Shown piece after piece: positions 3,552 through 64,000 of a DNA stretch of 64,000 bases. The DNA comes from a virus. The translations under genes were made by a program, and so were the position numbers. The notes under the pieces were generated by a model. The model had not been told where the DNA came from and did no database searches. It saw only the letters and a list, made by a program, of their open reading frames with translations. Each line of letters starts with the position of its first letter. Position 1 is the stretch's first letter. The stretch spans positions 64,001-128,000 of IMG/VR virus record IMGVR_UViG_3300032323_002909. One strand, given 5' to 3'.

Positions 3552-3558
3552 ACTATAT

Positions 3559-3586
3559 AATTTAACATATTTTTCTAATATGTCAA
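3559..3586 (-). promoter_or_regulatory. sigma70-type promoter, 7 nt upstream of the rfbH ATG
   Basis: TTGACA-N16-TAAATT with extended TG. Confidence 0.6.
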
Positions 3587-3590
3587 TTTA

Positions 3591-4268: not shown

Positions 4269-4306
4269 TTAAAAATATGTATGTTTTTTATTTAAAACTA
4301 ATAAGA

Positions 4307-5826: not shown

Positions 5827-5827
5827 T

Positions 5828-8824: not shown

Positions 8825-8874
8825 ATTTTTCTTTGTGAATTTTATTTATCAATCCAATATTTTTTTTCAAATTT

Positions 8875-9582: not shown

Positions 9583-9598
9583 ATTTTTTTGTTTTATG

Positions 9599-11723: not shown

Positions 11724-11725
11724 TT

Positions 11726-14175: not shown

Positions 14176-14244
14176 GTTAATATTACTTAGTCGAAAATTA
14201 ACATTTTGCAATCGTATTCTTAATAATTAAGCGTTCTATGGTGT

Positions 14245-23668: not shown

Positions 23669-23697
23669 CAAAATAGATTGTGGAAATAGATAATATC

Positions 23698-47179: not shown

Positions 47180-47188
47180 ATAAAAATA

Positions 47189-47606: not shown

Positions 47607-48872
47607 TTATATAAAAATAGCTACGCAAATTTCGGTAGAATCATAGGGATCATCGCTTTCTCTGTTCCATATCTCTAATGCACTCGCTGTCTTTGTCCCA
47701 TCTAATGGTGGGGACATAACACTCCCCCAACCAACGTTGTTGATTTGCCTCGATGCCGCCACATAACAATAATTCGCTGATGGTAAAGGTGTGGTAAAAT
47801 TTATAATATACTTTCCTGTGTCTACACTAGTGATAGCAGATACATTGTAACTATTTATAATTGAAAGATTCGTACCGTTAAATACAACCCATGCTTTACT
47901 AGAACCATTTGCAGATGTGTTGATGGTTAATGTTGAATTGTTATTGAAATTAGCCGATCCTGATACATCACCTGTTAAACTAATGGTCTGACCACTTAAA
48001 TTTCCTTGAAGTGTAGTTCCTCTGATTGTTCCATTAACTTGTAATTTTGCAACTGGATCAGTTACTCCGATACCAACATTACCTGTTTCATCGATGCGCA
48101 ATCTTTCAGTTCGTCTATCGGTTCTGGTTCCCGCTCCTTGTGTTTGAAACACCATTTCAGATGCGCCATCTGTTCTTACGATAGTTTGTATATTTGATAC
48201 AGCGTTACCTGATTCATTATTAACGGTAAAGAATACTGAAGCTTCGGCAGTAAGTGCTGCGAAATTGTTTTGAACTGAAATGCCTCTAGCTTGGTCGCCA
48301 CCACCTACAAAACGTGCTAAATTACTACTCAATGCTACAACATCCAATGCCGCAGAAAGGGTGGTTGTTCCTATTCCCACAAGTCCTTGATTGGTTATAA
48401 CAAAACGGGTAGTGGTGCTAAGAGGATCTTCAACCTCTAATGCGTTACCAGCACCTGCTTGTTTTATCAATAGTCCAGCACGTGATGCGTTCAATGTGAT
48501 AGTATCGCCACTTTTGGATACATATTCTCCACTCACGTTACTAACTGTCGTGGAATTGTTGGCGATTTCTTCCCAATCGCTAATTCTGGAACCATCGTTT
48601 TCTTTAAGACGATATAAAAGTTTGTCGCTTGTACTATATGCTAAATCACCCACTTCTGCTGGTGCGAATAGAGTAACACTCGCACCACTACCTTTGAATA
48701 TATTTCCCGCTACTACACCGCCTCTAGTAGCGCCATCACCTACAAACAAACGTCTTGTGTCGGTGGTATATCCTGGCTCACCTGGATTTAAAATCACGTT
48801 TTTTCTTTCATTATCAGTCCCTTGGCGAACTAATAATTTTATCAAACTGTTATCAAATATTTCTATGCTCAT
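47607..48872 (-). CDS. tail fibre protein (Mtd-N/hyaluronidase-N-like N-terminus)
   Basis: VRQGT..L..GEPGYTTDTRRLFVGDG..GG; GNVGIG..P..KLQV.G; AWV.FNG..S.NVS.I...TGKY.INF. Confidence 0.85.
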   Translation of the reverse strand: MSIEIFDNSLIKLLVRQGTDNERKNVILNPGEPGYTTDTRRLFVGDGATRGGVVAGNIFKGSGASVTLFAPAEVGDLAYSTSDKLLYRLKENDGSRISDWEEIANNSTTVSNVSGEYVSKSGDTITLNASRAGLLIKQAGAGNALEVEDPLSTTTRFVITNQGLVGIGTTTLSAALDVVALSSNLARFVGGGDQARGISVQNNFAALTAEASVFFTVNNESGNAVSNIQTIVRTDGASEMVFQTQGAGTRTDRRTERLRIDETGNVGIGVTDPVAKLQVNGTIRGTTLQGNLSGQTISLTGDVSGSANFNNNSTLTINTSANGSSKAWVVFNGTNLSIINSYNVSAITSVDTGKYIINFTTPLPSANYCYVAASRQINNVGWGSVMSPPLDGTKTASALEIWNRESDDPYDSTEICVAIFI

Positions 48873-48873
48873 A

Positions 48874-49965
48874 TTAATATGCAAAAATTGGTATTGCAAA
48901 CCTCCCCACTAATTGATTGTCCCTACTAACATTATTACCTTCAAATGTTAAGAATCCTGCCGATGTTAATATTACAGTCATTGTGCTACCATCGTTTAAA
49001 ATATTATTTAATGCTGTTGCACTAAGTCTTGTGACAGTTAAATTCGGAATCGCCCCTGTAATTGTATGTGCGGGTGTACCATTGAACAAACTACTCAATC
49101 CAACGCCTAAGCTTGATGCGCCTATTCCAGTCAATGTGCTGAAAATAGATTTTTCTACTGAGTTTCTATCGATAATAGGTTTCCAATTGTTGAGATTTGT
49201 CGATGGATTAGCACTCAACTGATAAAATACTCCATCAACGCTAGCCATATCGCCTATTCTTGGATTATTATTGGAACCACCACTTAAAAGAGTTAAATCA
49301 GTCGTGGTAGATTGTGGTAAATAAATTTTGGTAATACCATCATAATTGATATTTAATTCTCTATCAACATAACGAAACTGACTAGGATTAGCTATAATTT
49401 GAATAGGTGCGTTATTTCCACCACTTATACCATTTCCAAAAGATGTGGATTTGATTTCTTTTTGCGTTATAGCATTTGCACTCAATGTTAAAACATTGTT
49501 GGGTACATCGAAAAAATTCGTATCGTAATTGATTCGTAGTAAATTGTTTCGAATAACCAACCCATCAGTTATTGTATTTGGGTTGATTTTAGAAGCTGAT
49601 AAACCACTAAGTTTAACATTTAAAGTAGATGCATCATCATATTCCAATTCATTTGAAATTTTCGTAGCCAACCTACCCCAATTTGCAATGTTTGTATGGG
49701 GGGTTGCTGTTAATTGATACCACACGTTATTGATCGGTACAATATCACCAACTTCTGCATATAAAGATGATAAATTATTGACGATGTTAACTGGTGTGTT
49801 TACTTTACTAACTACCGACACTCCTCCCAGAGTCACACCATTTCCAATATATAAACGATTGGTATCAATAGTGTAAGATAATTCACCTTGATCCAACCGA
49901 GTTAAAATTCTTTGAGCATTAGTACCTCTGCGAATTTTTATTTTAGATATAAAAAATTGTGACAT
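48874..49965 (-). CDS. tail fibre-related protein (Mtd-N-like N-terminus)
   Basis: IRRGT..LDQGELSYTIDTNRLYIGNG..GG. Confidence 0.8.
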   Translation of the reverse strand: MSQFFISKIKIRRGTNAQRILTRLDQGELSYTIDTNRLYIGNGVTLGGVSVVSKVNTPVNIVNNLSSLYAEVGDIVPINNVWYQLTATPHTNIANWGRLATKISNELEYDDASTLNVKLSGLSASKINPNTITDGLVIRNNLLRINYDTNFFDVPNNVLTLSANAITQKEIKSTSFGNGISGGNNAPIQIIANPSQFRYVDRELNINYDGITKIYLPQSTTTDLTLLSGGSNNNPRIGDMASVDGVFYQLSANPSTNLNNWKPIIDRNSVEKSIFSTLTGIGASSLGVGLSSLFNGTPAHTITGAIPNLTVTRLSATALNNILNDGSTMTVILTSAGFLTFEGNNVSRDNQLVGRFAIPIFAY

Positions 49966-49974
49966 ATTGATTAT

Positions 49975-50667: not shown

Positions 50668-50675
50668 ATTATTAT

Positions 50676-52469
50676 TTAGTTATCGGCGATTAAATTAGCA
50701 ATTAATTTTTGTTGAATTTCTACAATTAACGTGAAAATCCTTTGTAGTGTAATAGTATTGACACTTTCATTACCATTCATTTTCAGATTATTTAAATCAT
50801 ATTCAATTTGTTTTATATTGCCCAATAAAACATCATCATTTCTTATAATATATGAATTGATTGCTTTGGTATGTAGCGTTAAAATGTCAGCTGTTATATT
50901 GAATAACTGCCTATTTAGAAATATACCGAAAGAATCACTGACACAATCAATATCGATGAAGTATTTTTTTAAACTTCTATTGATAGCCGACTGATAGGTA
51001 TCAATTATGGGTTGTTTCAACGTATATAACCTACGAGAATTGTGTAAAAGATGATAATTGGTATCACCTTTACTCAATTCTTTGAAATTTATATTCACTA
51101 TATTAGTGTTTTCTCCCGAATTCAATGTTATTAGTTTATTGTCGAATACATAATAAGCATCTTTAAAGGTTAATCTTGGTAGATATTTTAAATTATAATC
51201 TCTAAATGTCGCTGATGCGTATGATGGATTTGAAATATACCTACACTCTATTCTATTTTTCGTATTGATGAAAAATATATTAGAATCGAATGAAGAAAAT
51301 TTTAAAACATATTTACTAGAAATTGGGAAACTTGATAAAATGTTATCAGTAAAACTGTTTTCAAAATCAAATGGATCGAAGAAACATATTCTATACTCAT
51401 TAACATTTCTATACAATATAGATACCAGATCATCAACACTTCGAATGTCAATTGCTAATGCTGTGGTTATACCCAGATCATTCAATGGTATAGTTGCTAA
51501 TACTTGAGATCCTTTTTTATTATAAATGTATAAAACTTGGTCATCATCAATAAAAGTCCTCATCTTGCTGCCAAATTTCACACTATCAACATTGTTCTCG
51601 TTTAATATGAAATTCTTTTTCTCGAAAAATTGTTTTACTTTAATGAATTTAATTTTGTCTGTAAATTTTAATTCAAAATGTTGCACAGGTTTTAATTGTA
51701 ACTTATCCACCAATATCAAATGATCAAAAATATTTTCACCCTCACCTCCACATGATATAAAATTTAAACCTTCATAAACACAAACTTCATCATTTATCAT
51801 GATATTGATTTTATTATCAACTTCATCATAATAAATACCATAAATTTCTTGTTTTTCTTCTAACTGTAATGATTTATAAGTTAATTCTTTTCTGTCTGTG
51901 AATGAACCTATGATCAAAATTAAATCTTTTCCAGTAGAACATAAATATTTAAAATTCTGATTGGACTGCACGATAAAATCACCATATTTTATCTTTTCCA
52001 GAAAGCTCCATTCTACACTGTCATTAAGATTTGCCGCATATAGCGAATTAATCTTACCAGTCATGTCATCTGGATTATTTACATTAGTCGATGTTAACCC
52101 ATAAAAATGACAATTATTGTTATCGAAATCAACTATTTGAGGATTTTGAGTAAACAATGATTTAAAAACGATCAAATTGTTGGTATTGATAGCATCGAAT
52201 ATTTTATCTAATTCATTTTTATTTAAAATATCAAAAGAATTGCTAAAATATGGTTTAATACTCTCAATAGAATTATACTGGTTATCAAATTCTAATTTTT
52301 TTAGATAAAAATTTGACATGAAATTTTGTTTAGGGGTCAACAGTTCTGAATTACTGTCTTTCAATTTTCCAGTATATGCGTTATCATCTACTATTGTGAA
52401 AAAACCACTGTAATCAACGTTGTTTAACGTAAAAGCATCGCCATTTGTATATTTGAAGTATGAAATCAT
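50676..52469 (-). CDS. putative baseplate/tail structural protein
   Basis: Large N/D-rich ORF in the baseplate operon. Confidence 0.65.
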   Translation of the reverse strand: MISYFKYTNGDAFTLNNVDYSGFFTIVDDNAYTGKLKDSNSELLTPKQNFMSNFYLKKLEFDNQYNSIESIKPYFSNSFDILNKNELDKIFDAINTNNLIVFKSLFTQNPQIVDFDNNNCHFYGLTSTNVNNPDDMTGKINSLYAANLNDSVEWSFLEKIKYGDFIVQSNQNFKYLCSTGKDLILIIGSFTDRKELTYKSLQLEEKQEIYGIYYDEVDNKINIMINDEVCVYEGLNFISCGGEGENIFDHLILVDKLQLKPVQHFELKFTDKIKFIKVKQFFEKKNFILNENNVDSVKFGSKMRTFIDDDQVLYIYNKKGSQVLATIPLNDLGITTALAIDIRSVDDLVSILYRNVNEYRICFFDPFDFENSFTDNILSSFPISSKYVLKFSSFDSNIFFINTKNRIECRYISNPSYASATFRDYNLKYLPRLTFKDAYYVFDNKLITLNSGENTNIVNINFKELSKGDTNYHLLHNSRRLYTLKQPIIDTYQSAINRSLKKYFIDIDCVSDSFGIFLNRQLFNITADILTLHTKAINSYIIRNDDVLLGNIKQIEYDLNNLKMNGNESVNTITLQRIFTLIVEIQQKLIANLIADN

Positions 52470-54661
52470 TTGAAGTATGTGATATTATTTATTTCTGTGG
52501 TGAGAGGAGTGTATCTGTTACACGTATCAGCAACTATTAAATTCAACTCGTTTTTTATATTTTCAGGTAAATCAACATTTCTAATCAAAACATTGATATA
52601 ATTAGATTTAAATGCTTGATTATTACATACGGTTTGGAATAAATCTATATCATCTTCGCTGTTTCTTTGATCACAAGGTAAAGTTACTTTAATATTGTCA
52701 ATAGCGATCAATTTGTTCGTAAATGGTAAAATTAAAGATTCATTGACTGTTAATGATCTAGTATATATGTCAAAAATTAAATCTTTTGCGGTAGTATTGA
52801 AATTCCCAAATAATAATTTTTTATCATAAAATTGAAATGGGTCGAAGGTTATATTCAAGACAATACCACCATTTAAGTTTACATACCCGATTCCTTTTTT
52901 AGAATTTAGAGAAAACACCAAAAAGTTTTTCTTTAATTTTTTTATAGCCTGTGATGTAGTATATTCGGTATATGTATTATCACTAGGATCGAATAATACA
53001 TACTCGAAATTAATAGTATCGTTTGTTTTCACTATAGACAACCCAGCATCTATATTATTTCTACTACTATTAAACACCCAATTGTTACCATCGCCTTCAA
53101 ATACCATAAATATGGTAAATTCGCCATCAGTATTTATATTTTCGAAATAATTAAAACTGTTTATGTCGCATTTATCCACTATATTACTAGATAACAAAGT
53201 ATTCGATAATGTTTCTAGATTACCAATTCTTTCATAAATGAATTCATCGTTTGCTTCTATGATAAAATCACTTTTTTTGTCAAAAATTTGAAAAGCGGAT
53301 AGAGAATTATTGGTTGCTGTATTAGCATTCACATATATTTCAATCAATTCTTGATATGTTGGATTGAAAGTTGATCTAAGTTTTAACGCTTCCTCTTTTT
53401 CGATCATGTCTGGATAGTAATATCTATCCACCCATATTTTATTATCACCTAGAGGAGAACCAGATAACCAAGTGCAGAGGTATACTTGCCCATCATCATA
53501 ACCATTATCATTATCCAGTCTATATACCCTATCTGCATAAATGGGGGTATCGAAAGAAAATGCACCACATTCTACAAATTTGCTATCATTAATGTTTAAT
53601 CTAATATAAGGAAATATACTACTAGGTGCCTTTATGTAATTTATACCTGATTTTATAGTGTATGATTTATTGTACAATACGTAATTCAATGCTAATGTTT
53701 CGTCTTTTTCTTTATCTATATCATTAAAAATTGAAGTATAATCTCTCATACCCTCCATGAAAAACAATGATGTGTTACTAGAAAGCAAATTATTACCCGA
53801 TGTGAATACGTCATCTTGAGTCAATTGATTTTTCAATGTAATGATTTCAGGATTATTATCCTTCACATGTATTAGATAATTATTTTTTAAATTTTTAGTT
53901 ATGAGATTGTTTGGTATATTATTGGCTAAATCGTAACCCACCAGACTAAAATTATCACTACTATTAATATTATTGTATAAAGGTCTATCTATCAATATGG
54001 CATTATTTATTGATAATGTTTTGTTATCTTCTTCAAATGTTTGAAGAGACAAACTATTGCCTAATTTTGTTAAAATTTTACAAATACCACCACTATTTTC
54101 AAATAAACACAGTGAATTGTTTGTTTTTGAGTAGATATAATTAAAAGTTATTGGCTCGATATTAGCACCTTTGGCATAAAAAGATAATATACCCAGATTA
54201 TCAATCCCTAAATAATATTTTTTATAATTGAGTGATGCATATACTCTGCATCTGTTCTCACTCATGAATTCTATAGTAAATTCTGACGATTGATTAGCAC
54301 TTGTTTCAAAATTGTAATCACCGTATTCTAAATATTCGTTGAATACTCCCAAAGTTGCCAATAATCTGCGGTCTTTTAAACTAAATTTTAAATAATTACT
54401 TCCAAAATTTAATTTTGTAAGCATTGCTTCTGATTTAATATCGTCTTTTGTGGATTCTTCGATATTATCTAGCAACATTTCATCGGTAAGATAAAAAGTG
54501 CTGTAATTTTTATGTTTAACGTCTCTAATTTTTGTAAAAGCATTATAAAAATTTAGTGACAATCCACCATCGTAATACCTTTTATATTTTTTTAAGATAT
54601 TGGTGTCACTTACAAATTCTCGGGGCTTGCACGATGATAATTTTTCTACAGATACATCCAC
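52466..54661 (-). CDS. putative baseplate/tail structural protein (GTG start)
   Basis: TAAATA 5 nt before the GTG; beta-rich; YLCTWLSG..WVDRYY. Confidence 0.65.
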   Translation of the reverse strand: MDVSVEKLSSCKPREFVSDTNILKKYKRYYDGGLSLNFYNAFTKIRDVKHKNYSTFYLTDEMLLDNIEESTKDDIKSEAMLTKLNFGSNYLKFSLKDRRLLATLGVFNEYLEYGDYNFETSANQSSEFTIEFMSENRCRVYASLNYKKYYLGIDNLGILSFYAKGANIEPITFNYIYSKTNNSLCLFENSGGICKILTKLGNSLSLQTFEEDNKTLSINNAILIDRPLYNNINSSDNFSLVGYDLANNIPNNLITKNLKNNYLIHVKDNNPEIITLKNQLTQDDVFTSGNNLLSSNTSLFFMEGMRDYTSIFNDIDKEKDETLALNYVLYNKSYTIKSGINYIKAPSSIFPYIRLNINDSKFVECGAFSFDTPIYADRVYRLDNDNGYDDGQVYLCTWLSGSPLGDNKIWVDRYYYPDMIEKEEALKLRSTFNPTYQELIEIYVNANTATNNSLSAFQIFDKKSDFIIEANDEFIYERIGNLETLSNTLLSSNIVDKCDINSFNYFENINTDGEFTIFMVFEGDGNNWVFNSSRNNIDAGLSIVKTNDTINFEYVLFDPSDNTYTEYTTSQAIKKLKKNFLVFSLNSKKGIGYVNLNGGIVLNITFDPFQFYDKKLLFGNFNTTAKDLIFDIYTRSLTVNESLILPFTNKLIAIDNIKVTLPCDQRNSEDDIDLFQTVCNNQAFKSNYINVLIRNVDLPENIKNELNLIVADTCNRYTPLTTEINNITYFK

Positions 54662-54669
54662 AATATTAT

Positions 54670-55155
54670 TTAATTGAATGGTGTCTCGACCTCTACTAGT
54701 AATCCATCTTTTTTGGTTACAAATTGATGTATTTTTTTATCTGTTTTCAGCACAGTATTCAACAAATACATATCTTCGATACTTTCCTCATAATCATAAT
54801 TTGTGATTGTTATGGGTATGGTGAACGTAGAGACATCATTATTACAATATTTTAAAGTGCATACTGCCGTAAGTTGATGTGTTTTATTATCACCATTTGG
54901 ATAATAAATATTCTTAAAAGTTTGATAGAAAAATGATGAGAAAGCATTATTTATCAATAGTTTTGGAGTAAAAATATCATTTTCTATGAATATGGTGACA
55001 CCATTACCCCAATCTACGTGCAAATACAAAGGTAAAAATTTTTCAGATATGCCGAAAACATTTAATTCTAATTCGGTAATGTCAACTATAGACAGAGGGA
55101 CTGTCGTATTGAAATTTGTATTATTCGAGGATAATGAAAGGGTTGCAGTGTTCAT
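54670..55155 (-). CDS. small PKD/Ig-like structural protein
   Basis: VDWGNG motif. Confidence 0.6.
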   Translation of the reverse strand: MNTATLSLSSNNTNFNTTVPLSIVDITELELNVFGISEKFLPLYLHVDWGNGVTIFIENDIFTPKLLINNAFSSFFYQTFKNIYYPNGDNKTHQLTAVCTLKYCNNDVSTFTIPITITNYDYEESIEDMYLLNTVLKTDKKIHQFVTKKDGLLVEVETPFN

Positions 55156-57701
55156 TTTTGATCGTATTGGTTCAATTTCAACATCTTGAAAGGATTTATT
55201 CTACACTCCATTTCAATTATACTGAAATACTTAGCATCATCTTTTAATAAGAATGAAATATTGAATATATTTTTCTTAGAATTGTAAGATATTTTTGGAG
55301 TATCCAAATACGTAAAACTAATATTACCAACAGTTATTTGTGGAATATCCAAATCTTTAAATATTTTTATTTTATGATCTATGGTATCATATTCATAAAT
55401 TGTCGGTATGATTTTGAAATTGCTTCCCCCTTCGATATTAACTCTATTTGAGATAACAAAATACACGAAATCATCTTTTTTGTAAGCATTGCTTATTTTA
55501 TTGAAATTGTCGTTATTGTGTGTGAATCGATAGGTTGATTCTGAAGGTGTCAAAAATTCCCCATTATCGTAATTTATTTTTGTTATGATATAGTTATTTG
55601 TTGTTTCTATGAACAACACATCAGATGTTATATCAAATGCCCTCACACCACTGACACACTCATTATAAGTTGATAGTGGTAAAACATCTGCCAAATACGA
55701 CAATTGAGTTTCTAGTTTTGAAATCGCCATATCATAAGCATTTCTAACATAAATACCACCTTTCAAGTTGTATCTTTCGTATAATGTTTTGTTTTCCCCT
55801 TCTGGTGTATCATCAATTAATGTCGGTAAGAATACCGTACTATCATAGACACTACCTACACTAAAATCTTCACCTTGAGAAGTATTAGAAAACGATCCAC
55901 CATCAATTAAGTATGCAGATAGGTTGTTTGGCACTACTTCCATAGTCATATTAGCAGTTAATGATGGAAACAATGGGTCTACTAATGCTCTCTGTAAAGG
56001 ATTTATACTATGTATACCACCTTCTACCAATATCGAATAATAATACGAACCGCTATTTTCATATGCACTTAAGTCGGACGCGATGGTATCGATATATGGA
56101 ACTTCACCATCGGTAAAAAATACACCATCGAAAGTATTTACGATTGGAAAATATTCAGGGCTATAATAAAAATAATCATTTGTGAATGTTCCAGCTATTA
56201 TCTGTGTAAAGTTACCACTGAGGACAAATCCATTTGTAAATGAGCTTAACCCTGATCTAGTAGTATCCGTAAAGGTAGTGTTGTCAACAACTGAATAATC
56301 AAAACTATACCCTTCACCATAAAGATAATCGAAAAATGTGTGACCATTCAGTATTTGATACGCTGAAAATTGATCATTATCTTTTAGGATGGATTTTTTA
56401 AAACTGCCATCATTTTTCATCAAACCAAATAGATTATTATAAATATCTTTTTTAGAATCTTGTATATATCCTTGTGTGAAAACATCATCAAGATATTTTT
56501 TAGAATTTGGTTCTATTTTTGATATGTATCCATAATATTTGCTATCATCTTTTTTACTAAATGGTTTATTAGTTGCTTTACCAGATGTAAAATTTCGTCT
56601 AACCGAGTCATCACTATTAATAAAGGTTAAAACATCACCATTAACTCCTCTTATGTTTGGATCAGGGAAATAATAAATTGTATTTGGTTCAAGTCTATCT
56701 AAATTATATGTATATCTCGTTGTATTGCCATCAATATTGATAATTGATGTTTTATGTGGTCTGAAAAAGCCAATAGTGTCTGGAGTGACTAATACTTTCT
56801 TGTCACTAGACGCTGTCGTTGGGTTATCGATATTGAAAAAATTTAAAGCTGGTCTATCTGCTTTGAACAATAAACCAGATACAAAATCAGTCACTGTGGA
56901 ACCAGTCGATAAATAGTAGAAATCGTTGCCAATGTATTTTTGGGTTAATTTTCTTTTATTATCTAATAAGTCATTTATTTCTTTTTGTTCCAGTTGTTTT
57001 TCGCTAAAATTTGAAAATACTTCTGTAATTAATTCGTTATTATCTTTTAAAAAAAGATTTAAATCGTAGTCTAAATCTTTATTGTCGTATATTTTATCAT
57101 TTGGTGTTTGATTAAAATATAATGGGTAGATATCATATAATTCTTCGATTTCTATGTTCAACTCTTCTTTTAAAATGTTGATATCGAATAAATATGCGCT
57201 ATCTTGTAGACCTTCCAAGTAACTAATTATATTATTTTTTAATTCTGTCTTTAAAAGATTGGATGTGCCAGTCATCTTTTTCTTGATGACTTGATATTTG
57301 AGTTCCTCTCTTTTTTTATTGTAGAAATTAGATATTTCTATTAATTTTTTACTATAAAAGGGTACCGCTAATTCTAAATCTAGAGGATCATCTAAATTTA
57401 TTTGTGATAGAAATTTTTTCTCATCTTCATTTGTATAATTGAGAGATATATCTTTGATGAAATCTCTATATTTTTTTACAATAGTAGTTTTGGAATCTTC
57501 TTCTTTTAAATTTTTTACACTGTGCCATTCTTTGATATAGCTTACGTAAACCGACTGCATTAACTGTGGTGATATTACACTGTCTATTATTTTTATAAAT
57601 TCCAAAAACGAGAACGGGTTTTCCAAATCTAAAGCATTAGTACTACTAACGTTAGGATTCGTTATCGATTTTGGAACAATATAATTTAATGTATCAGCCA
57701 T
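55152..57701 (-). CDS. putative baseplate wedge structural protein
   Basis: Large ORF downstream of the gp6 module; TAAATA 6 nt upstream. Confidence 0.65.
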   Translation of the reverse strand: MADTLNYIVPKSITNPNVSSTNALDLENPFSFLEFIKIIDSVISPQLMQSVYVSYIKEWHSVKNLKEEDSKTTIVKKYRDFIKDISLNYTNEDEKKFLSQINLDDPLDLELAVPFYSKKLIEISNFYNKKREELKYQVIKKKMTGTSNLLKTELKNNIISYLEGLQDSAYLFDINILKEELNIEIEELYDIYPLYFNQTPNDKIYDNKDLDYDLNLFLKDNNELITEVFSNFSEKQLEQKEINDLLDNKRKLTQKYIGNDFYYLSTGSTVTDFVSGLLFKADRPALNFFNIDNPTTASSDKKVLVTPDTIGFFRPHKTSIINIDGNTTRYTYNLDRLEPNTIYYFPDPNIRGVNGDVLTFINSDDSVRRNFTSGKATNKPFSKKDDSKYYGYISKIEPNSKKYLDDVFTQGYIQDSKKDIYNNLFGLMKNDGSFKKSILKDNDQFSAYQILNGHTFFDYLYGEGYSFDYSVVDNTTFTDTTRSGLSSFTNGFVLSGNFTQIIAGTFTNDYFYYSPEYFPIVNTFDGVFFTDGEVPYIDTIASDLSAYENSGSYYYSILVEGGIHSINPLQRALVDPLFPSLTANMTMEVVPNNLSAYLIDGGSFSNTSQGEDFSVGSVYDSTVFLPTLIDDTPEGENKTLYERYNLKGGIYVRNAYDMAISKLETQLSYLADVLPLSTYNECVSGVRAFDITSDVLFIETTNNYIITKINYDNGEFLTPSESTYRFTHNNDNFNKISNAYKKDDFVYFVISNRVNIEGGSNFKIIPTIYEYDTIDHKIKIFKDLDIPQITVGNISFTYLDTPKISYNSKKNIFNISFLLKDDAKYFSIIEMECRINPFKMLKLNQYDQK

Positions 57702-57706
57702 TTTTA

Positions 57707-59794
57707 TTATTTAACCAGTCCGAGGGATTGATAAAGATTGTCTCTGAATAAAAAATTGATCAGAAATGACCTAAATTCAGGTAATTCGTGTTCCACGAGT
57801 ATAAATTCTCCGTTTTGTGTTAATAATGGTTGATTATCTTCACCTCTAATAACATATTCCGAAAACAACATATCGTAATATATACTACTATTGTCCAATA
57901 TGGTATTATCATATACAGTATTATCGTAGCCATCAACATACTCGAAAAATAAATAATATTTTTCCATGTCTTTATATTGAAATTCTGATGGTAAAACTAA
58001 TCCCCACCCCCAATTCGAATTATACCCCGATAATTTGTAAGAATTCGTCCCTGTTTCTTCAGTTGGTTGTCTAGTGTTTAACAACGTATATTCATTACTA
58101 AATTTTTCGAGTGCTACTATAGGTATACCTGCTGATATTGTGTATGTGTCAGTGTTAATACGATCACCTAAATTCGTTCCATATATTTCTTTTGTCGAGA
58201 ATCCTCTAATATCAAAGTTTTGATTGAATTTATTTTTAATACCCAACAACTTATTATCGGTCATCGAAGATAAATCCATTATTCTTTTAATTTTTTCAGG
58301 ATATGCTATTAACAGAGAGTCATAGATATTGTTGGGCGTTATCCCCATCATTTTCATCTGAGAAATCAATGCTGTAATTTCATTTCTATCAACATCTTGT
58401 GTATTACCTACAAAATTTGATATTTTTTCATATATTTTTTTACCCAAAGTATCATATGATGAGTCTATATTTCCAAATATTGAACCGATGAATTCATCAA
58501 ACAGAATATTTTTCTCTAATAAAATTTCTTGAAATCTCAATCCTTTGAACATCTCAGTAGCATCAAAGTCTTCATTTATTTTAGTCATCGAAATGAAATT
58601 TTGGGGATAAACATCAAATACATTAGATGCACCATTTAATGTGTAAACTGTTCCATTTATAGACGATATACTGCCACTTACTGTAATTTTAACATCGTTT
58701 AGTTTTTCATCGCTATCAAATATGATACTTTTCCGAACAGAACCATCGAAATTTTCAATATTTTTTAATGTATAATACGCACTATCGATCAAATCTTCAC
58801 CTGATAATACTTGAAATGTAAAGGTGGATGCTGATAATGGTTTAAGACTCTTAACAGTAAAATGATCTTCATCTTTTACTTTTATCACAAAAGACATTTC
58901 AACATTATGAAATTTTTCACTATCAATATCAAACACTGTTGATGGATAGAATTCACCATCCATACCATTGGTTGTTATACTAAACTTATTAATTGTATCA
59001 TTTTCAATAATCTTTGCGGATAATGTTATCGAGGAGTTGTTATTGTATATTTCATTAGTTCTTCTATCGAAGAAAAACTCGATATTAACATCATCTATTG
59101 TATCATTTTTAAAAAATACTGTATTCTTACCAGAAAGACCAACATAAAATGAACCGTCATCACTTTTATCAGCGAATACTAATGTATTGTTTGCAATTTT
59201 TGCATATACCTCTGATGTAGGTATGGCTATTTTATCAACTTCGATATATTCGAAAGACTTTTTTTGATAATTGTATTTTTTTTCAAACATTGAATAATTA
59301 TTTTTCAAATGTCTGAATTTATCTGCCGTATTTTGAAAGTAATAAATACTATCAGAATTATAAACTCTGTAATAAATATCACCTTGTTCAGTATTTAAAG
59401 GATAAAACGCTACAAGGTTGATAGGTCCTCCGATTTTACCTGTTTTCCATGTGATATCATTGTTGTATGTTGGATCGTCAAACGTTATATTAAAAGTATG
59501 TGGTAAAAAATCTTTAATTACTACTGGTTTAGAATTAACAGAAATGATGGCATTGGAAAAACAATCATAAATTGTTAAATTAGTCACATATTTTCCAGCT
59601 TTTTCGTAATATTTTGTAGCTGTTAGTGCTGAAGAATAAGTATTGTCTCCAAAATCCCATAATAATTTTATAAATGAAAAATTAGTTACATTTGGTATAA
59701 AAGTCAATGGGGTTTCCTTCAATGCGTAGGAACTCAAAGAATTTTGATTTTTGAAATCAATTATAGAATAATTAATGTTTTCTAAATTACTCAT
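57707..59794 (-). CDS. PKD-domain baseplate protein (gp7-like position)
   Basis: LWDFGD..Y...G.Y...L PKD motif; coupled to gene 6. Confidence 0.7.
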   Translation of the reverse strand: MSNLENINYSIIDFKNQNSLSSYALKETPLTFIPNVTNFSFIKLLWDFGDNTYSSALTATKYYEKAGKYVTNLTIYDCFSNAIISVNSKPVVIKDFLPHTFNITFDDPTYNNDITWKTGKIGGPINLVAFYPLNTEQGDIYYRVYNSDSIYYFQNTADKFRHLKNNYSMFEKKYNYQKKSFEYIEVDKIAIPTSEVYAKIANNTLVFADKSDDGSFYVGLSGKNTVFFKNDTIDDVNIEFFFDRRTNEIYNNNSSITLSAKIIENDTINKFSITTNGMDGEFYPSTVFDIDSEKFHNVEMSFVIKVKDEDHFTVKSLKPLSASTFTFQVLSGEDLIDSAYYTLKNIENFDGSVRKSIIFDSDEKLNDVKITVSGSISSINGTVYTLNGASNVFDVYPQNFISMTKINEDFDATEMFKGLRFQEILLEKNILFDEFIGSIFGNIDSSYDTLGKKIYEKISNFVGNTQDVDRNEITALISQMKMMGITPNNIYDSLLIAYPEKIKRIMDLSSMTDNKLLGIKNKFNQNFDIRGFSTKEIYGTNLGDRINTDTYTISAGIPIVALEKFSNEYTLLNTRQPTEETGTNSYKLSGYNSNWGWGLVLPSEFQYKDMEKYYLFFEYVDGYDNTVYDNTILDNSSIYYDMLFSEYVIRGEDNQPLLTQNGEFILVEHELPEFRSFLINFLFRDNLYQSLGLVK

Positions 59795-61595
59795 TTGTTA
59801 TTACTATTTTTTTGTATATTGATTGTGGATTGTAAAAGTATGGAAATTTGAAAAATTCCAAGGTTGTCGTTTGTGATACAATACTTTCATCAGAATTTTC
59901 ATATATCGGATTCCATGCAAAAAATGATATACCATTGAATACTTCATTGTTATTAACCGTTTTGAGTCCAGATACTCCTTCTAATTTTAAAATGTTGGAC
60001 GTTAATTGTGATAAATCCAATTTCTGACCCAATTTGTTATTAGAATTTTTGAAAAACTCCAATATAATATCTCCGATTTTTCGTTTTAATGTTTCGGGAT
60101 TTGTTCTAAAATTGTTTGTTCTGGATATTTCCAAATAACTACTGTTAATAACATCCAAAGTCGGTGTCGAGTTTGTATAACCAATATCAAATGCTACATA
60201 AACAGGATCTCTTGGTATGATCTCATGACTAATTATTTTTCTAGTCGAGGCTTTATCGATGATAAGATTTTTTAAACTATTTGAAAGAAAAGGTGGATAC
60301 GATCCATCCGTTGTTATTTCAAATTTAGGAACGCAAAATATGTTTACATTATTAAAATCACAAGAATCCGCAAAATTTACTTGATTTATAATTACCCTAT
60401 TCGATTTGTTAGGGTCTACGCAAATTTTGTAGAAGTAATCAATATATTCACTTATGAAAGTTTTATTACTAACTGTTTTAACAGATGCGATGATATTTGA
60501 CAGTTCTTTGCCTAAAAATGCATCATCATAATCTTGTTCTGTTACCAATTTTAGCTGAGAATTTAGATATTTTGGAACATTTTCTTTAATTTGTTCAACC
60601 GTTTCAGCATTTGAAACTGGTGTTGAATTTTCAGTATTGTTGAATGATAAAGTTCCAGTATTTGACAAGTTTATAACCTCATCAGTGCTAATAACCGTTG
60701 TGTCGGCATATATTTCATTAAAACGTGAAGTGTTATAGTTGAATAACTTATTACCATTGATAGCACCTTTGCTAATTATCCCTTTGGTATTATCACTTAA
60801 CAGGTAATATATTGCCACCTCGTCTTCATTTTTCAATTTTCTACCAAAAACATCATTTCCAAATTTTACTTCATATAACCCATTATCGTTTAGTCTTACA
60901 CTATAATATCGGTCGTTATTTCTGGCTAAGAAAATATTTTCAATCTGTTCATAACGATGCCACTTACCGTCAATTTTTTCTTTAACATAAACACTTATAG
61001 TACCATCTGCAATAAAACGTACATCATTTTTATCTACTCTATTCTCTACGACAATTGGTAAAGTTTCAAAATCTACTCCAATAGCGGTATATATTGGATA
61101 TTCATTGATATTACCTTGATATAAAATTAGATTATTTTTAATATTTTCAATGTTTTGCTCACCCGAAACAGTCTTTTCAAATGTGAAATCATCTAAAATA
61201 GTGTATGCGATCTTATCAACTAGAAAAAAACTATATTTTTTGAGTGTATAGCTACCTTCGGGGAGAGCAGAACTTGCAGTGCAATCGACAGGAACTAATG
61301 ATGTCTGTTTACCTGTTGGTTTATAACCTATTAAATTTACAATTTTATTTACATTTTCATACAATGTTGCTTGCGAAAACATACTTTCGGATGCGGTCTG
61401 ATTCAAATAAAACAGCAAAACATGGTAACTATATGCAATTATATCAATAAAAGCTGCTAAATTACTACCTTCATAATTTTGATCAGTAAAAGTAGCATTT
61501 TCATTCAATCTTTGGATGATAAAATCTTTCAGAGAAAGAGCATCGAAATTGATGTAAGCGTTTTGTGGTAAATTGTATTCCAGAGATTCTTTCAT
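59787..61595 (-). CDS. 6: baseplate wedge subunit gp6
   Basis: FTDQNYEGSNL..IDIIAY..L.FY.N..ESM..A, IGYKP, FGNDVFG, ETVEQIK..P..Q..VT..DY. Confidence 0.92.
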   Translation of the reverse strand: MKESLEYNLPQNAYINFDALSLKDFIIQRLNENATFTDQNYEGSNLAAFIDIIAYSYHVLLFYLNQTASESMFSQATLYENVNKIVNLIGYKPTGKQTSLVPVDCTASSALPEGSYTLKKYSFFLVDKIAYTILDDFTFEKTVSGEQNIENIKNNLILYQGNINEYPIYTAIGVDFETLPIVVENRVDKNDVRFIADGTISVYVKEKIDGKWHRYEQIENIFLARNNDRYYSVRLNDNGLYEVKFGNDVFGRKLKNEDEVAIYYLLSDNTKGIISKGAINGNKLFNYNTSRFNEIYADTTVISTDEVINLSNTGTLSFNNTENSTPVSNAETVEQIKENVPKYLNSQLKLVTEQDYDDAFLGKELSNIIASVKTVSNKTFISEYIDYFYKICVDPNKSNRVIINQVNFADSCDFNNVNIFCVPKFEITTDGSYPPFLSNSLKNLIIDKASTRKIISHEIIPRDPVYVAFDIGYTNSTPTLDVINSSYLEISRTNNFRTNPETLKRKIGDIILEFFKNSNNKLGQKLDLSQLTSNILKLEGVSGLKTVNNNEVFNGISFFAWNPIYENSDESIVSQTTTLEFFKFPYFYNPQSIYKKIVITNE

Positions 61596-61604
61596 TATAA
61601 TTAT

Positions 61605-62090
61605 TTAGAGTGTTGTATAGCCTATCGTGTTTAATTTCGATTTAATCGATAATCCTTCTACGTTTAACGAAGGAACATTTATTTGTAAGTAAATTTCATA
61701 TTCATTATCATCTGGTTTAGGAACCACAAGAACTCCAGATACTTCGATTCTTGGTTCACTCAGCGACAATTTTCTAATAATATCATCCTGTATCACATCT
61801 GCGGTGTATTTATTAATAGGTTCGAATAAAAATCTACGTAAATCTACTCCAAAAGTAGGATTTAATATTTTTTGTCCAGGTGATGTTAGAAAACAATTCG
61901 CTACACTATTTTTAATTGCTTCGATATCAAAAATTGCTTGGACATCTTTCAAACTCTCTTTTTTATTGAGTTGACTATTCACATAATATTGTGTATTAAG
62001 GTCAAAATCGATATCTTTATACAAATAACCATTATCTAATGACTTTTGCTTAATATCGTTATTTTTAAGAGATGTTATCTTTATGCTCAT
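61605..62090 (-). CDS. 25: baseplate wedge subunit gp25
   Basis: YKDID, AIKNSV.N..T.PG..NP.FG..L...LFEP, EPRI. Confidence 0.92.
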   Translation of the reverse strand: MSIKITSLKNNDIKQKSLDNGYLYKDIDFDLNTQYYVNSQLNKKESLKDVQAIFDIEAIKNSVANCFLTSPGQKILNPTFGVDLRRFLFEPINKYTADVIQDDIIRKLSLSEPRIEVSGVLVVPKPDDNEYEIYLQINVPSLNVEGLSIKSKLNTIGYTTL

Positions 62091-62124
62091 ACAATTATTT
62101 AGATTCTTATTAAATAATTGTATG
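62088..62124. promoter_or_regulatory. back-to-back late promoters forming a perfect 14-bp inverted repeat
   Basis: CATACAATTATTTA-9 nt-TAAATAATTGTATG; each arm is TAAATA-N5-ATG. Confidence 0.75.
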
Positions 62125-64000
62125 CCAAAGATTTCTCAACTTAATTCAGCATTAACACCATTATCAGGAAAAGAAGTAATCGTTCTTAACCAGAACGGGG
62201 TGACATATAATACTGAATTGGATACGCTCACACAGTTTATCAGTGCTTCTACTAGAATAGGTGATTTGTCTAGCAATCTAACCAATTTGACAACTTTGGT
62301 TAGAGTATCAAGTGGTGATTGGGAGAATACCCATACTACAATGACTTTATTGTCTGGGAATTGGCAGAGCACTTACACCACTTTTTCAAGCAATTCGGCT
62401 AATTTTGCTGTCAAAAACGCCAATAATTTTTTTACTGCTGATCAAACTTTTTCAACAGGTCGAATCAACTTGAGCACATTTCCAATACGAGTATTGGCAG
62501 ATAGTAATATTTCTATTGGTTTAAGCGCAGGTAATCTAACAACAAGTCCTACTAATACCACATTTATAGGTCGTAATGCTGGAAACAATGCGACATCCGT
62601 CACAAATTCTAATTTTATAGGTTTAAATGCTGGTCTCTCTGCTACAAATGCTAGCAATTCGAATTTCTTTGGTAATAATGCTGGAAATCGCGCCACAATT
62701 GCCGAAAATTCTAATTTCTTAGGTCGTAATGCTGGTCTCTCTGCTACAAATGCTAATAATTCTAATTTCTTGGGTCAAAATGCTGGACATGGAGCTACAA
62801 ATGCTGCTTCTTCTAATTTTTTCGGTAATTGTGCTGGAAATCGAGCTATTAATGCTAATAATTCTAATTTCTTAGGTGCTTATGCTGGATTTTGTGCTAC
62901 AAATGCTTATAATTCTAATTTTTTAGGTCCAGATGCTGGATGTAGAGCTACAAATGCTAAACAATCTAATTTTTTAGGTAATAATGCTGGAGAATGCGCT
63001 ACAAATGCTTGTTATTCTAATTTCCTTGGTAAAAATGCTGGAAACCGTGCTACAAGTGCTGTTGTTTCCAATTTTATAGGTAATAACGCTGGCTTTTATG
63101 CTACAAATTCTAGTAATTCTAATTTTTTTGGTGGAGACACTGGACAATGCGCTACAAATGCTAGTTATTCTAATTTCTTGGGTAATCAAGCTGGAAAATA
63201 CGGGACTAATGCTAATAATTCTAATTTCTTTGGTAGAAATGCTGGATATTGCGCTACAAACGCTAACAATTCTAATTTCTTAGGTAGAGAAGCTGGATAT
63301 TGCGCTACAAATGCTTCTTTTTCTAATTTTTTGGGTAATAATGCTGGTCTCTCTGCCAGAAATGCTTTTTTTTCTAATTTCTTAGGTAGAAATTCTGGAA
63401 ATCTCGCTACTTTTTCTTGTTGCTCTAATTTTTTCGGTAGTGCTGCTGGATCTAATGCTACGTGCGCCCACAATTCTAATTTTGTGGGTGGGAGTGCTGG
63501 ATTTGGTGCTACAAATGCTTGTTATTCTAATTTTGTAGGTAAGAATAGTGGAGGATCTGCCACAAATGCTAATAATTCTAATTTCTTCGGTGAATCTGCT
63601 GGATACAACGCGACTGATGCTAATAATTCTAATTTTTTTGGACAGGAAGCTGGAAACAACGCGACTGATGCTAATAATTCTAATTTTTTAGGTGGCAGTG
63701 CTGGATATCAAGCTACAAATGCTAATAATTCCAATTTTTTAGGTAATAATGCTGGATATTGCGCTACAAATGCTAATGATTCTAATTTTTTAGGTAACAG
63801 TGCTGGATATTGCGCTACATATGCTTCTAATTCTAATTTCTTCGGCAATAATGCTGGATTTGGTGCTACTAATGCTAATAATTCCAATTTTTTAGGCTCT
63901 GGCGCTGGAGGTCACGCTTCTTGTGCTTACTTTTCTAATTTTCTGGGTGAATTCGCTGGAAATTCCGCTACAAGTGCTAATAATTCTAATTTTTTTGGTA
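62122..64000 (+). CDS. long tail fibre or adhesin with beta-solenoid repeats, runs off the window end
   Basis: Not in the ORF track because it has no stop. MPKISQLNSALTPLSGKE... then (ATNANNSNFLGxxAGxx)n. Confidence 0.85.
   Translation, partial: MPKISQLNSALTPLSGKEVIVLNQNGVTYNTELDTLTQFISASTRIGDLSSNLTNLTTLVRVSSGDWENTHTTMTLLSGNWQSTYTTFSSNSANFAVKNANNFFTADQTFSTGRINLSTFPIRVLADSNISIGLSAGNLTTSPTNTTFIGRNAGNNATSVTNSNFIGLNAGLSATNASNSNFFGNNAGNRATIAENSNFLGRNAGLSATNANNSNFLGQNAGHGATNAASSNFFGNCAGNRAINANNSNFLGAYAGFCATNAYNSNFLGPDAGCRATNAKQSNFLGNNAGECATNACYSNFLGKNAGNRATSAVVSNFIGNNAGFYATNSSNSNFFGGDTGQCATNASYSNFLGNQAGKYGTNANNSNFFGRNAGYCATNANNSNFLGREAGYCATNASFSNFLGNNAGLSARNAFFSNFLGRNSGNLATFSCCSNFFGSAAGSNATCAHNSNFVGGSAGFGATNACYSNFVGKNSGGSATNANNSNFFGESAGYNATDANNSNFFGQEAGNNATDANNSNFLGGSAGYQATNANNSNFLGNNAGYCATNANDSNFLGNSAGYCATYASNSNFFGNNAGFGATNANNSNFLGSGAGGHASCAYFSNFLGEFAGNSATSANNSNFFG
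62557..64000 (+). repeat. 51-bp (17-aa) coding tandem repeat, at least 28 units
   Basis: TCTAATTT anchor at 62608, 62659, 62710, 62761 ... 63985, consistent with an unbroken 51-bp period. Confidence 0.92.

What the first reader, a model, noticed from the sequence alone, without database searches (positions are those of the whole stretch)
47607..64000. L-S-[A/G/S] tripeptide enriched in outer virion proteins: candidate sequon for phage O-glycosylation
Seen (hand counts, approximate): LS[AGS] occurs about 27 times in about 3070 aa of five tail/baseplate proteins. That includes 8 of 9 LS dipeptides in 48874-49965, 7 of 7 in 57707-59794, 5 in 52466-54661, 4 in 55152-57701 and 3 in 47607-48872, and it recurs in the 62122 fibre. 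It occurs only about 3 times in about 3050 aa of gp43, UvsW, gp46, gp47, gp41 and UvsX, and not at all in gp6 or gp25. Related [LIV][ST][AG] variants follow the same trend. The motif is dispersed in non-homologous contexts, so it is not a repeat artefact. Known: bacterial O-glycosylation can use 3-residue sequons (Bacteroidota D-S/T-hydrophobic), and some phages glycosylate virion proteins with their own GTs. Inference: with the 12-kb GT operon, this suggests a phage-encoded general protein O-glycosylation system with its own sequon, coating exposed tail parts.
Basis: partly seen in the sequence, partly recalled or inferred. Interest (0 to 1): 0.8.

Follow-up and report, generated by a model that had tools for sequence, protein, structure and literature searches.

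The report
Leu-Ser-small tag on phage tail
The exposed tail, baseplate and fibre proteins of this uncultured T4-like phage and its relatives carry the ordered tripeptide Leu-Ser-(Ala/Gly/Ser) about six times more often than chance; it probably marks serines that a conserved phage sugar-transferase decorates, but no chemistry shows this yet.

Summary
The excess survives whole-protein and 15-residue-window shuffles. It is order-specific and lies at the protein level, not the DNA level. Among about 16,800 motif definitions it ranks first (50 vs 9.6, p 3.5e-20); the top motifs in T4 and a cyanophage reach only p about 1e-5.

The specificity looks like a sequon: Leu (much more than Val), then Ser (more than Thr, nothing else), then Ala/Gly/Ser.

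Sites sit in four families with no shared domain. They occupy positions that hold Lys/Asp/Glu/Asn in sister lineages. In 120 sheath homologues every site lies in the outer domains (595 vs 117) and none in the conserved core (0 vs 40). Inner virion and replication proteins are at expectation.

The sugar island is real. One GT2 in it (window 10926-11723) is present in all six motif-positive genomes examined and absent from three motif-negative ones.

O-glycosylation is therefore the leading reading (about 0.45), but it is unproven. The scan has logged analogous tags (DGY, SGS, DS[DE]) in other phage clades.

The parts
57707..59794 (-). 695-aa peripheral baseplate protein. Residues 1-400 form about four Ig-like domains. 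It has 7 LS[AGS] sites (codons at 59729-59737, 59129-59137, 59015-59023, 58829-58837, 58799-58807, 58265-58273, 58025-58033).
   Evidence: 7 observed vs 0.74 expected. AF2 gives pLDDT 80-90 for residues 1-400. Foldseek matches Hoc, S-layer and Ig arrays. Orthologues at 35-53% identity keep 6-13 sites. The Ser columns alternate with K/D/E/N/Q in other lineages.
55152..57701 (-). 849-aa baseplate protein with 4 LS[AGS] sites.
   Evidence: 4 vs 0.97. 25 orthologues carry 3-9 sites each; the site at residue 544 keeps the motif in 22/25.
52466..54661 (-). 731-aa baseplate protein with 5 LS[AGS] sites.
   Evidence: 5 vs 0.89. LSG399 is conserved in 20/20 orthologues and LSS293 in 16/20.
48874..49965 (-). 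363-aa fibre protein with an Mtd_N N-terminal domain and 8 LS[AGS] sites, the highest density found.
   Evidence: 8 vs 0.78. Pfam Mtd_N. Orthologues in G001-G004 carry 5-10 sites.
47607..48872 (-). 421-aa tail fibre protein (Mtd_N plus a tail-fibre C-terminus) with 3 sites.
   Evidence: 3 vs 0.9, p about 0.06 on its own. PHROG tail fibre families.
62083..64000 (+). Fibre protein of 888 aa that runs on to window coordinate 64749. It has 8 sites, 5 of them inside the repeat unit SNF[FL]G.NAG-LSA-TNA.
   Evidence: The repeat also dominates the tripeptide scan (SNF, ATN, FLG).
59787..62090 (-). gp6 (602 aa) and the gp25-like wedge protein (161 aa). These are inner baseplate proteins without the motif and serve as internal negative controls.
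   Evidence: 0 of 7 and 0 of 3 LS dipeptides are followed by A/G/S. PHROG baseplate wedge families. 53 gp6 orthologues carry 0-2 sites against about 0.8 expected.
3..13324 (-). Sugar-nucleotide and glycosyltransferase island: GT11 x3, GT17, GT25, GT2 x4, DUF3431, RfbH-like dehydrase, C-methyltransferase and 2 SDR epimerase/dehydratases. A late-type promoter lies before its first gene (12638-13324).
   Evidence: Pfam and NCBIfam. Promoter-like [CT]TAAATA[AT]T just upstream of the ATG. The island is syntenic in G001 and G004.
10926..11723 (-). Conserved 265-aa GT2, the candidate enzyme that reads the tag.
   Evidence: Orthologues at 41-54% identity in G001, G002, G003, G004 and G007. None in G005, cyanophage ACG-2014f or T4.
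716..1456 (-). Conserved GT11 (fucosyltransferase family). A paralogue lies next to it at 3-716.
   Evidence: Pfam GT11. Orthologues in G001 and G004 and in G007. None in G005.

Best explanation
L-S-[A/G/S] (looser form [L>V]-[S>T]-[A/G/S]) is a short acceptor tag written into the solvent-exposed parts of the tail: the outer sheath domains, the peripheral baseplate proteins, the fibres and some neck proteins. The central serine is O-glycosylated in the cytoplasm during late infection. A clade-conserved phage GT2 (window 10926-11723) would start the glycan, and the conserved GT11 plus a variable set of further GTs and sugar-nucleotide enzymes in the same island would extend it. The result would be a phage-specific glycan coat on the tail. 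Shown here: the motif, its specificity, where it sits, its conservation and its co-occurrence with the GT2. Inferred: that the serine is modified, that the modification is a glycan, which enzyme reads the tag, and what the coat does (for example shielding, stability, or adhesion to host or environmental glycans).
For: (1) The enrichment is far beyond chance and beyond controls. (2) The specificity matrix: at position 2 only Ser (5.2x in this phage, 3.15x in relatives) and Thr (2.1x, 1.7x) are enriched. D, N, K, E, A and G are not. A hydroxyl requirement with Ser above Thr runs against beta-strand propensity and against turn or cap motifs. Position 1 is Leu, far above Val. Position 3 is Ala, Gly or Ser, each about 3x in relatives. 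(3) Placement: the outer set gives 64 vs 10.8, inner virion proteins 4 vs 4.7 and replication proteins 6 vs 5.3. In 120 sheath homologues all 595 sites lie in residues about 100-480, and none lie in the termini that align to T4 gp18. Lineage-specific sheath insertions bring new sites. (4) The Ser columns hold K/D/E/N/Q in sister lineages, which marks them as surface positions. Motif serines are more conserved than other serines (0.72 vs 0.48, p 0.003). (5) No domain is shared among the four carrier families (hhalign probability <=1%). (6) The feature is clade-wide: about 80 IMG/VR relatives give 1239 vs 378, and the same orthologues are enriched in G001, G004 and G007. It is absent from T4 and from a cyanophage. 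(7) The GT island is real and syntenic, with a conserved GT2+GT11 core. The GT2 orthologue is present in 6/6 motif-positive genomes and absent from 3/3 motif-negative ones. (8) Precedents: glycans on mycobacteriophage capsid and tail-tube proteins (Freeman et al. 2023, as cited in PMC12619734) and the three-residue O-glycosylation motif of Bacteroidota (PMC8550257).
Against: No chemistry exists, and the phage is uncultured. About half of the sites in the 695-aa family lie inside beta strands. There, Leu and the small residue would point into the core, so an enzyme acting on folded protein could not read them; recognition would have to occur before or during folding. Cytoplasmic proteins show no avoidance of the motif. 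The excess sits at positions shared by at least two divergent lineages; private sites occur at the neutral rate (17 vs 19.6 expected), so there is no sign of ongoing gain. The GT-motif association covers 9 genomes only, and the positives form one broad clade. The island could instead modify the host envelope or another target. Relatives G001-G003 carry an extra GT2 at the end of the fibre operon that this phage lacks, yet the motif persists here.
Confidence: 0.45

Rival explanations
1. The motif is a clade-specific structural or evolutionary signature with no modification. L-S-small would be a favoured way to build an amphipathic strand or turn in this lineage's beta-rich outer proteins: Leu and the small residue pack inward and Ser faces out. 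It would be inherited at conserved positions from old ancestors.
For: About half of the sites in the 695-aa family lie in predicted beta strands. The excess is in positions shared between divergent lineages, and private sites are at the neutral rate. In the 1032-aa fibre, sites recur every 11-20 residues, as in a fibrous repeat.
Against: A packing rule should accept Thr, Val, Ile or Asn/Asp/Lys at the exposed position and Ile/Val at position 1. Only Leu and Ser (then Thr) are enriched. The four families share no detectable domain. T4 Hoc, T4 baseplate and fibre proteins and a 4225-aa Ig-rich cyanophage protein (0 of 30 LS) show nothing of the kind. Many sites are replaced by Lys/Asp/Glu in sister lineages, so they are not structurally required.
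Confidence: 0.3
2. The tag marks serines for another Ser/Thr-directed event: phosphorylation, acylation, an ester cross-link, or binding of a decoration or assembly factor. The GT island would then serve an unrelated target such as host envelope glycans.
For: Hydroxyl specificity fits any O-linked chemistry. The genome is only 73% complete, so other enzymes may be missing from view. A separate 407-aa GT next to gp46/gp47 shows that the phage has more than one glycosylation target.
Against: No kinase, acyltransferase or cross-linking enzyme came up among the proteins scanned against PHROGs or Pfam, though most small ORFs were not scanned. The only conserved enzymes that track the motif are the GT2 and GT11.
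Confidence: 0.12
3. The enrichment is an artefact of composition, of cryptic repeats, or of picking the motif after the fact.
For: Five of the 8 sites in the 888-aa fibre are repeat copies. In outgroup G005 the whole LS[AGS] excess is LSS inside a 22-aa LRR-type tandem repeat. The motif was chosen by eye.
Against: The excess survives 15-aa-window shuffles and permutation controls. It ranks first of about 16,800 motif definitions at p 3.5e-20 with the repetitive fibre excluded. There is no extended sequence context around sites and no shared domain. It is replicated in independent relatives.
Confidence: 0.03

Closest known systems
Virion glycosylation of mycobacteriophages by phage-encoded glycosyltransferases (Freeman et al. 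2023, Cell Host Microbe; known to me and as cited in PMC12619734; the paper itself could not be read here)
   Same: The phage encodes its own GTs, and structural proteins assembled in the cytoplasm would be O-glycosylated to form a glycan coat on the particle.
   Different: There, glycans sit at the C-termini of the capsid and tail-tube subunits. Here the capsid and tube carry no excess, and the tag is a defined tripeptide dispersed over sheath, baseplate and fibre proteins of a T4-like myovirus. No glycan has been demonstrated here.
General protein O-glycosylation of Bacteroidota with the motif D-(S/T)-(A/I/L/V/M/T) (PMC8550257, PMC8698959)
   Same: A three-residue motif with a central Ser/Thr and a small or aliphatic residue after it. 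A fucosyltransferase belongs to the locus.
   Different: Asp at position 1 is not enriched here (DS[AGS] 0.84x and 0.71x); Leu takes that place. That system works in the periplasm by en-bloc transfer from a lipid carrier. Phage tail proteins never leave the cytoplasm before lysis, and no Wzy_C-type O-oligosaccharyltransferase was found.
Chlorovirus PBCV-1 capsid glycosylation by virus-encoded enzymes at non-canonical sites (my own knowledge, not checked here)
   Same: A virus-encoded set of GTs and sugar enzymes builds a fucose-containing glycan on its own structural protein in the cytoplasm, at sites that do not follow host sequons.
   Different: That case is N-linked, on the major capsid protein of a eukaryotic virus.
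Autotransporter heptosyltransferases (TibC, AAH) acting on serines of beta-helix repeats of AIDA-I/TibA (my own knowledge, not checked here)
   Same: Cytoplasmic O-glycosylation of many serines in short strand-loop-strand contexts of beta-rich surface proteins.
   Different: A different GT family (heptosyltransferase) and different substrates, and no tripeptide rule of this kind.
Analogous tripeptide tags logged by this scan in other phage clades (DGY, S/T-G-S, [AP]SG, DS[DE]; AI notes, unchecked)
   Same: A clade-specific ordered tripeptide enriched 5-20x in outer virion proteins only, often travelling with conserved phage GT genes.
   Different: The motif differs (Leu-Ser-small) and so does the phage clade. 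None of these tags has chemical support.

Membership tests
Phage virion glycosylation (mycobacteriophage type) | The phage encodes glycosyltransferases | tested here: met
   GT11 x3, GT17, GT25, GT2 x4 and sugar-nucleotide enzymes at window 3-13324.
Phage virion glycosylation (mycobacteriophage type) | Glycan demonstrated on virion proteins (glycostain or mass spectrometry) | not testable with these tools
   Uncultured phage, sequence only.
Phage virion glycosylation (mycobacteriophage type) | Acceptor sites at the C-termini of the capsid and tail-tube subunits | tested here: not met
   MCP 1 vs 0.78 and tube 0. Sites are dispersed in sheath, baseplate and fibre proteins.
Bacteroidota general O-glycosylation | Motif D-(S/T)-(A/I/L/V/M/T) | tested here: not met
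   DS[AGS] is 0.84x in this phage and 0.71x in relatives. LS followed by I/L/V/M/T is about 1x.
Bacteroidota general O-glycosylation | Periplasmic en-bloc transfer by an O-oligosaccharyltransferase | tested here: not met
   No Wzy_C (PF04932) match in the genome, which is 73% complete. The substrates are cytoplasmic virion proteins.
Sequon-directed O-glycosylation (generic) | The central residue must carry a hydroxyl (Ser/Thr); other polar residues are not accepted | tested here: met
   L-x-[AGS]: only x=S (5.2x and 3.15x) and x=T (2.1x and 1.7x) are enriched.
Sequon-directed O-glycosylation (generic) | Sites are solvent-exposed | tested here: inconclusive
   The support is indirect. Ser columns alternate with K/D/E/N/Q. 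Sites occur only in the outer sheath domains. Sites occur in Ig-like arrays.
Sequon-directed O-glycosylation (generic) | The motif co-occurs with a specific transferase across genomes | tested here: inconclusive
   The GT2 orthologue is present in 6/6 motif-positive genomes and absent from 3/3 motif-negative ones. The sample is small and confounded by phylogeny.
Fibre or LRR tandem-repeat signature | Sites share an extended repeat context or a common domain | tested here: not met
   This holds only for 5 sites of the 888-aa fibre. There is no extended context elsewhere. hhalign probability is <=1% between families.

The most novel reading that the evidence does not exclude
A large, uncultured clade of aquatic T4-like phages uses Leu-Ser/Thr-(Ala/Gly/Ser) as a true cytoplasmic O-glycosylation sequon. 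A conserved phage GT2 reads it, and a fast-evolving sugar island elaborates the glycan into a lineage-specific coat on the tail. This would be one instance of a wider rule in which different phage clades each have their own tripeptide code for virion glycosylation.
Probability: 0.4. Interest if true: 0.8.

Novelty: new variant of a known kind. Interest (0 to 1): 0.66.

Why it matters
If the tag is a glycosylation sequon, it would be the first defined acceptor motif for phage virion glycosylation and the first case in a T4-like myovirus. It would explain why many aquatic phages carry large, variable sugar and GT islands. It would also let glycosites on uncultured phage particles be predicted from sequence alone. 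A glycan-coated tail bears on host recognition, on resistance to proteases and grazers, on particle stickiness, and on how phage surfaces could be engineered. Even if no sugar is attached, a hydroxyl-specific tripeptide kept on the exposed parts of four non-homologous protein families across a clade whose gp6 proteins share only 43-92% identity needs an explanation.

Tried and rejected
- DNA-level motif: rejected. Codons for L, S and A/G/S inside the motif follow background usage.
- Global and local composition: rejected.
- Order-independent clustering of L, S and small residues: rejected.
- Shared domain or cryptic repeat: rejected for all proteins except the 888-aa fibre.
- N-x-S N-glycosylation sequon hidden in N-L-S: Asn at position -1 is only 1.5x in this phage and not enriched in relatives.
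- Helix N-cap or turn motif: Asp and Asn are not enriched at position 2.
- Avoidance of the motif in cytoplasmic proteins: not seen (6 vs 5.3).
- Ongoing gain of lineage-private sites: not seen.
- T4 late promoter TATAAATA: not used systematically here. A variant, [CT]TAAATA, precedes the late genes.
- AF2 model of the sheath: too poor to use (pLDDT 49). The domain argument rests on the BLASTP alignment to T4 gp18.
- PDB sequence search with the conserved GT2 and with the fibre-operon GT2 of relatives: no hits.
- Searching IMG/VR with a single low-motif sheath (P0210): nothing found. An alignment query worked.
- Looking for a different tag in the sheath lineages with few LS[AGS]: uninformative, because conserved-core motifs dominate the scan.
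- Reading Freeman et al. 2023: the paper is not held.


Full report
**What the window is.** The window lies in a 150-kb record (G000, CheckV completeness 73%) of an uncultured T4-like myovirus with 30-35% GC.
- PHROG and Pfam scans identify DNA polymerase, SbcCD-like gp46/gp47, helicases, UvsX and primase.
- On the minus strand at 47.6-62.1 kb lies a baseplate and fibre operon. It reads gp25-like, gp6, then proteins of 695, 849, 161, 731 and 597 aa, a gp10_C protein, and two Mtd_N fibres of 363 and 421 aa.
- No cultured phage is close: gp6 is at most 26% identical to anything in the phage collection.
- IMG/VR holds at least 98 relatives with gp6 at 52-92% identity.

**The observation.**
Five proteins (3059 aa) hold 27 LS[AGS] against 4.3 expected from their own composition.
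- Outside the window, the 1032-aa fibre has 12 vs 1.5 and the tail sheath 5 vs 1.1.
- The excess survives shuffling within 15-residue windows: 48 observed, 9.0 mean, 19 maximum.
- It is order-specific. LS[AGS] scores 6.6x, while the five other orderings of the same residue classes score 0.9-2.6x.
- It is not a nucleotide signal. Codon usage inside the motif mirrors the background.
- To correct for after-the-fact choice of the motif, I scanned about 16,800 tripeptide definitions. With the repetitive 888-aa fibre left out, LS[AGS] ranks first at p 3.5e-20 (50 vs 9.6).
- The best motif in 15 T4 tail, baseplate and fibre proteins is HSH at 5e-6. The best in four large cyanophage proteins is 4e-5.
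- T4 and cyanophage ACG-2014f show no LS[AGS] excess. One 4225-aa cyanophage baseplate protein has 30 LS dipeptides and not one LS[AGS].
- One caveat: 5 of the 8 sites in the fibre starting at 62083 belong to an internal repeat.

**Specificity.** The first figure is for this phage's tail set, the second for about 450 distinct proteins from relatives.
- Position 2 (L-x-[AGS]): only x = Ser (5.2x; 3.15x) and x = Thr (2.1x; 1.7x) are enriched. Asp, Asn, Lys, Glu, Ala and Gly are at or below 1, apart from Ala at 1.5x in relatives.
- Position 1 (x-S-[AGS]): Leu stands alone. Val is at 2.0x and 1.5x, and Ile at about 1.
- Position 3 (L-S-x): Ala, Gly and Ser are each about 3.1-3.2x in relatives, and Cys is 2.7x. 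All others except His (2.2x on 24 cases) are near 1.
- There is no extended context around the sites.
- A hydroxyl requirement with Ser above Thr is not what beta-strand propensity, a turn or a helix cap would give.

**Where the sites are.**
- Outer proteins give 64 vs 10.8, inner virion proteins 4 vs 4.7 and replication proteins 6 vs 5.3. The inner set comprises gp6, gp25-like, tube, portal, MCP, terminase, gp13-like, gp10_C and the 597- and 161-aa proteins.
- The outer class includes three small proteins of unknown role that I placed there knowing their counts. The annotated members carry the result on their own.
- In the 1032-aa fibre, residues 1-440 hold 1 site and residues 441-1032 hold 11.
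- In 120 sheath homologues (at least 63% identity), all 595 sites fall in residues about 100-480 (117 expected). Residues 1-99 hold none (15 expected) and residues 481-end hold none (25 expected).
- Those two ends are exactly the parts that align to T4 gp18 (residues 2-72 and 400-654). From my own knowledge of the gp18 structure, the unaligned middle corresponds to the outward-facing domains.
- Lineage-specific insertions in that middle part bring additional LS[AGS] sites.
- The first 400 residues of the 695-aa protein are confidently modelled (pLDDT 80-90) as a string of Ig-like domains. They resemble Hoc and S-layer proteins.
- In that family, motif serine columns hold Lys, Asp, Glu, Asn or Gln in sister lineages, as surface positions do.
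- Motif serines are more conserved as Ser/Thr than other serines (0.72 vs 0.48, p 0.003).
- The 695, 849, 731 and sheath families share no domain detectable by profile-profile comparison (probability at most 1%).

**Evolution.**
- The enrichment is clade-wide. It is 1239 vs 378 over 80 loci.
- The same orthologues are enriched in G001 (complete, 198 kb), G004 and the more distant G007, whose gp6 is 43% identical. In G007, one 1368-aa protein has 27 vs 5.2.
- Among divergent representatives of each family, the excess lies in columns shared by at least two lineages. Sites private to one lineage occur at the neutral rate (17 vs 19.6 for the 695 family).
- Sites are therefore kept once present and differ between sub-clades. 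I see no sign of rapid ongoing gain.
- Among 150 sheath representatives at 32-60% identity, the excess is about 3x in the nearer ones and fades further out. At least one coherent lineage is at 1x.

**The enzymes.**
- Window 3-13324 is a genuine minus-strand island. It holds three GT11, one GT17, one GT25, four GT2, a DUF3431 protein, an RfbH-like 3-dehydrase, an NDP-hexose C-methyltransferase and two SDR enzymes.
- Late genes here are preceded by [CT]TAAATA[AT]T a few bases before the start codon. One such element precedes the first gene of the island. This is weak evidence for late expression.
- The island is syntenic in relatives. It has a conserved core (the GT2 at 10926-11723, GT11, an AAA_28 protein) and variable accessory genes.
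- The GT2 orthologue is present in all six motif-positive genomes: G000-G004 and G007, which also has the GT11 beside it.
- It is absent from three motif-negative genomes: G005, cyanophage ACG-2014f and T4.
- G005 is 99% complete and has no GT2 or GT11 at all. Its sheath and its gp6-neighbour proteins are at expectation. Its only LS[AGS] excess is LSS inside a 22-residue LRR-type tandem repeat. Without those proteins it scores 1.55x, against 3.0x in G007.
- The cyanophage has an unrelated GT2.
- This association is suggestive only. It rests on nine genomes, and the positives form one broad clade.
- Relatives G001-G003 also carry an extra GT2 of about 280 aa as the last gene of the fibre operon. 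This phage has two unknown ORFs there instead, yet it keeps the motif.
- No Wzy_C-type O-oligosaccharyltransferase is present.

**Reading.** The best-supported explanation is a tag for cytoplasmic O-glycosylation of exposed tail surfaces by the phage's own enzymes (confidence 0.45).
- The main rival is a lineage-specific structural habit without modification (0.3). About half of the 695-family sites lie in strands, where Leu and the small residue would face the core. That also means an enzyme would have to read the tag before folding. The Leu and Ser specificity, the non-homologous carriers and the absence from T4 and cyanophage equivalents argue against this rival.
- Another Ser-directed chemistry or a binding partner remains possible (0.12).
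- An artefact is essentially excluded for the non-repetitive proteins (0.03).

**Comparison with known systems.**
- It works most like mycobacteriophage virion glycosylation (Freeman et al. 2023, via PMC12619734), but with different acceptor proteins and a defined dispersed motif.
- It formally resembles the three-residue Bacteroidota motif D-(S/T)-(A/I/L/V/M/T) (PMC8550257) but fails that family's defining features: Asp at position 1 and periplasmic en-bloc transfer.
- Literature searches found no description of a sequon for phage virion glycosylation or of glycosylated T4-like tails.
- This scan's own notes list analogous, chemically unverified tags in other phage clades (DGY, S/T-G-S, [AP]SG, DS[DE]). 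These are leads, not independent support.

**Verdict.** It is a new variant of a known kind, virion glycosylation by phage enzymes, pending chemistry.

Noticed in passing
window 23680-24903 (+): A 407-aa protein matches a PHROG glycosyltransferase family (phrog_7162) but no Pfam family. It sits directly after gp47/gp46, about where (from memory) T4 has its DNA alpha-glucosyltransferase. It may be a separate, DNA-directed GT. It contains no LS dipeptide at all.
   Followed up: partly
window 46550-47602 (-); L090:4130-5514: In relatives G001-G003 the fibre operon ends with a protein of about 160-177 aa and a GT2 of about 280 aa on the same strand. In this phage that place holds two unknown ORFs (137 and 209 aa) with no family match.
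   Followed up: partly
whole genome, e.g. upstream of window 48874-49965, 52466-54661, 55152-57701, 59787-61595, 61605-62090: Late genes are preceded by [CT]TAAATA[AT]T 5-8 nt before the start codon, a variant of the T4 late promoter TATAAATA. 43 genes have it within 40 nt upstream, including one at the head of the GT island (12638-13324).
   Followed up: partly
G000:C1:3386-4876 (outside the window, minus strand): A 496-aa protein contains about 35 copies of a T-I/S-P-N-T pentapeptide tandem repeat. It accounts for the genome-wide PNT/NTI/TIP tripeptide excess.
   Followed up: no
window 62083-64000 and on to 64749 (+): The 888-aa fibre is built from a repeat of about 34 residues, SNF[FL]G.NAG-LSA-TNA..SNF. 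It dominates tripeptide statistics (SNF 41 vs 4.3).
   Followed up: partly
G007 (IMGVR_UViG_3300017917_005108), about 26-70 kb: The tail proteins of this distant relative carry very long Thr-Pro linkers (PTP 77 vs 4.2 expected) in addition to LS[AGS].
   Followed up: no
G005 (IMGVR_UViG_3300012979_000027), 67-72 kb and 188-193 kb: Four to five large proteins are built of 22-residue LRR-type repeats (..SLTSFSGD-LSS-LVNGTNMF..). This T4-like genome has no GT2 or GT11.
   Followed up: partly
L089:21924-34601 (Synechococcus phage ACG-2014f): The 4225-aa baseplate protein has 30 LS dipeptides and no LS[AGS] (5.0 expected), a mild depletion.
   Followed up: no
window 13429-14211 (-): A PhoH-like protein lies just upstream of the GT island. 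It is conserved in relatives G001 and G004.
   Followed up: no
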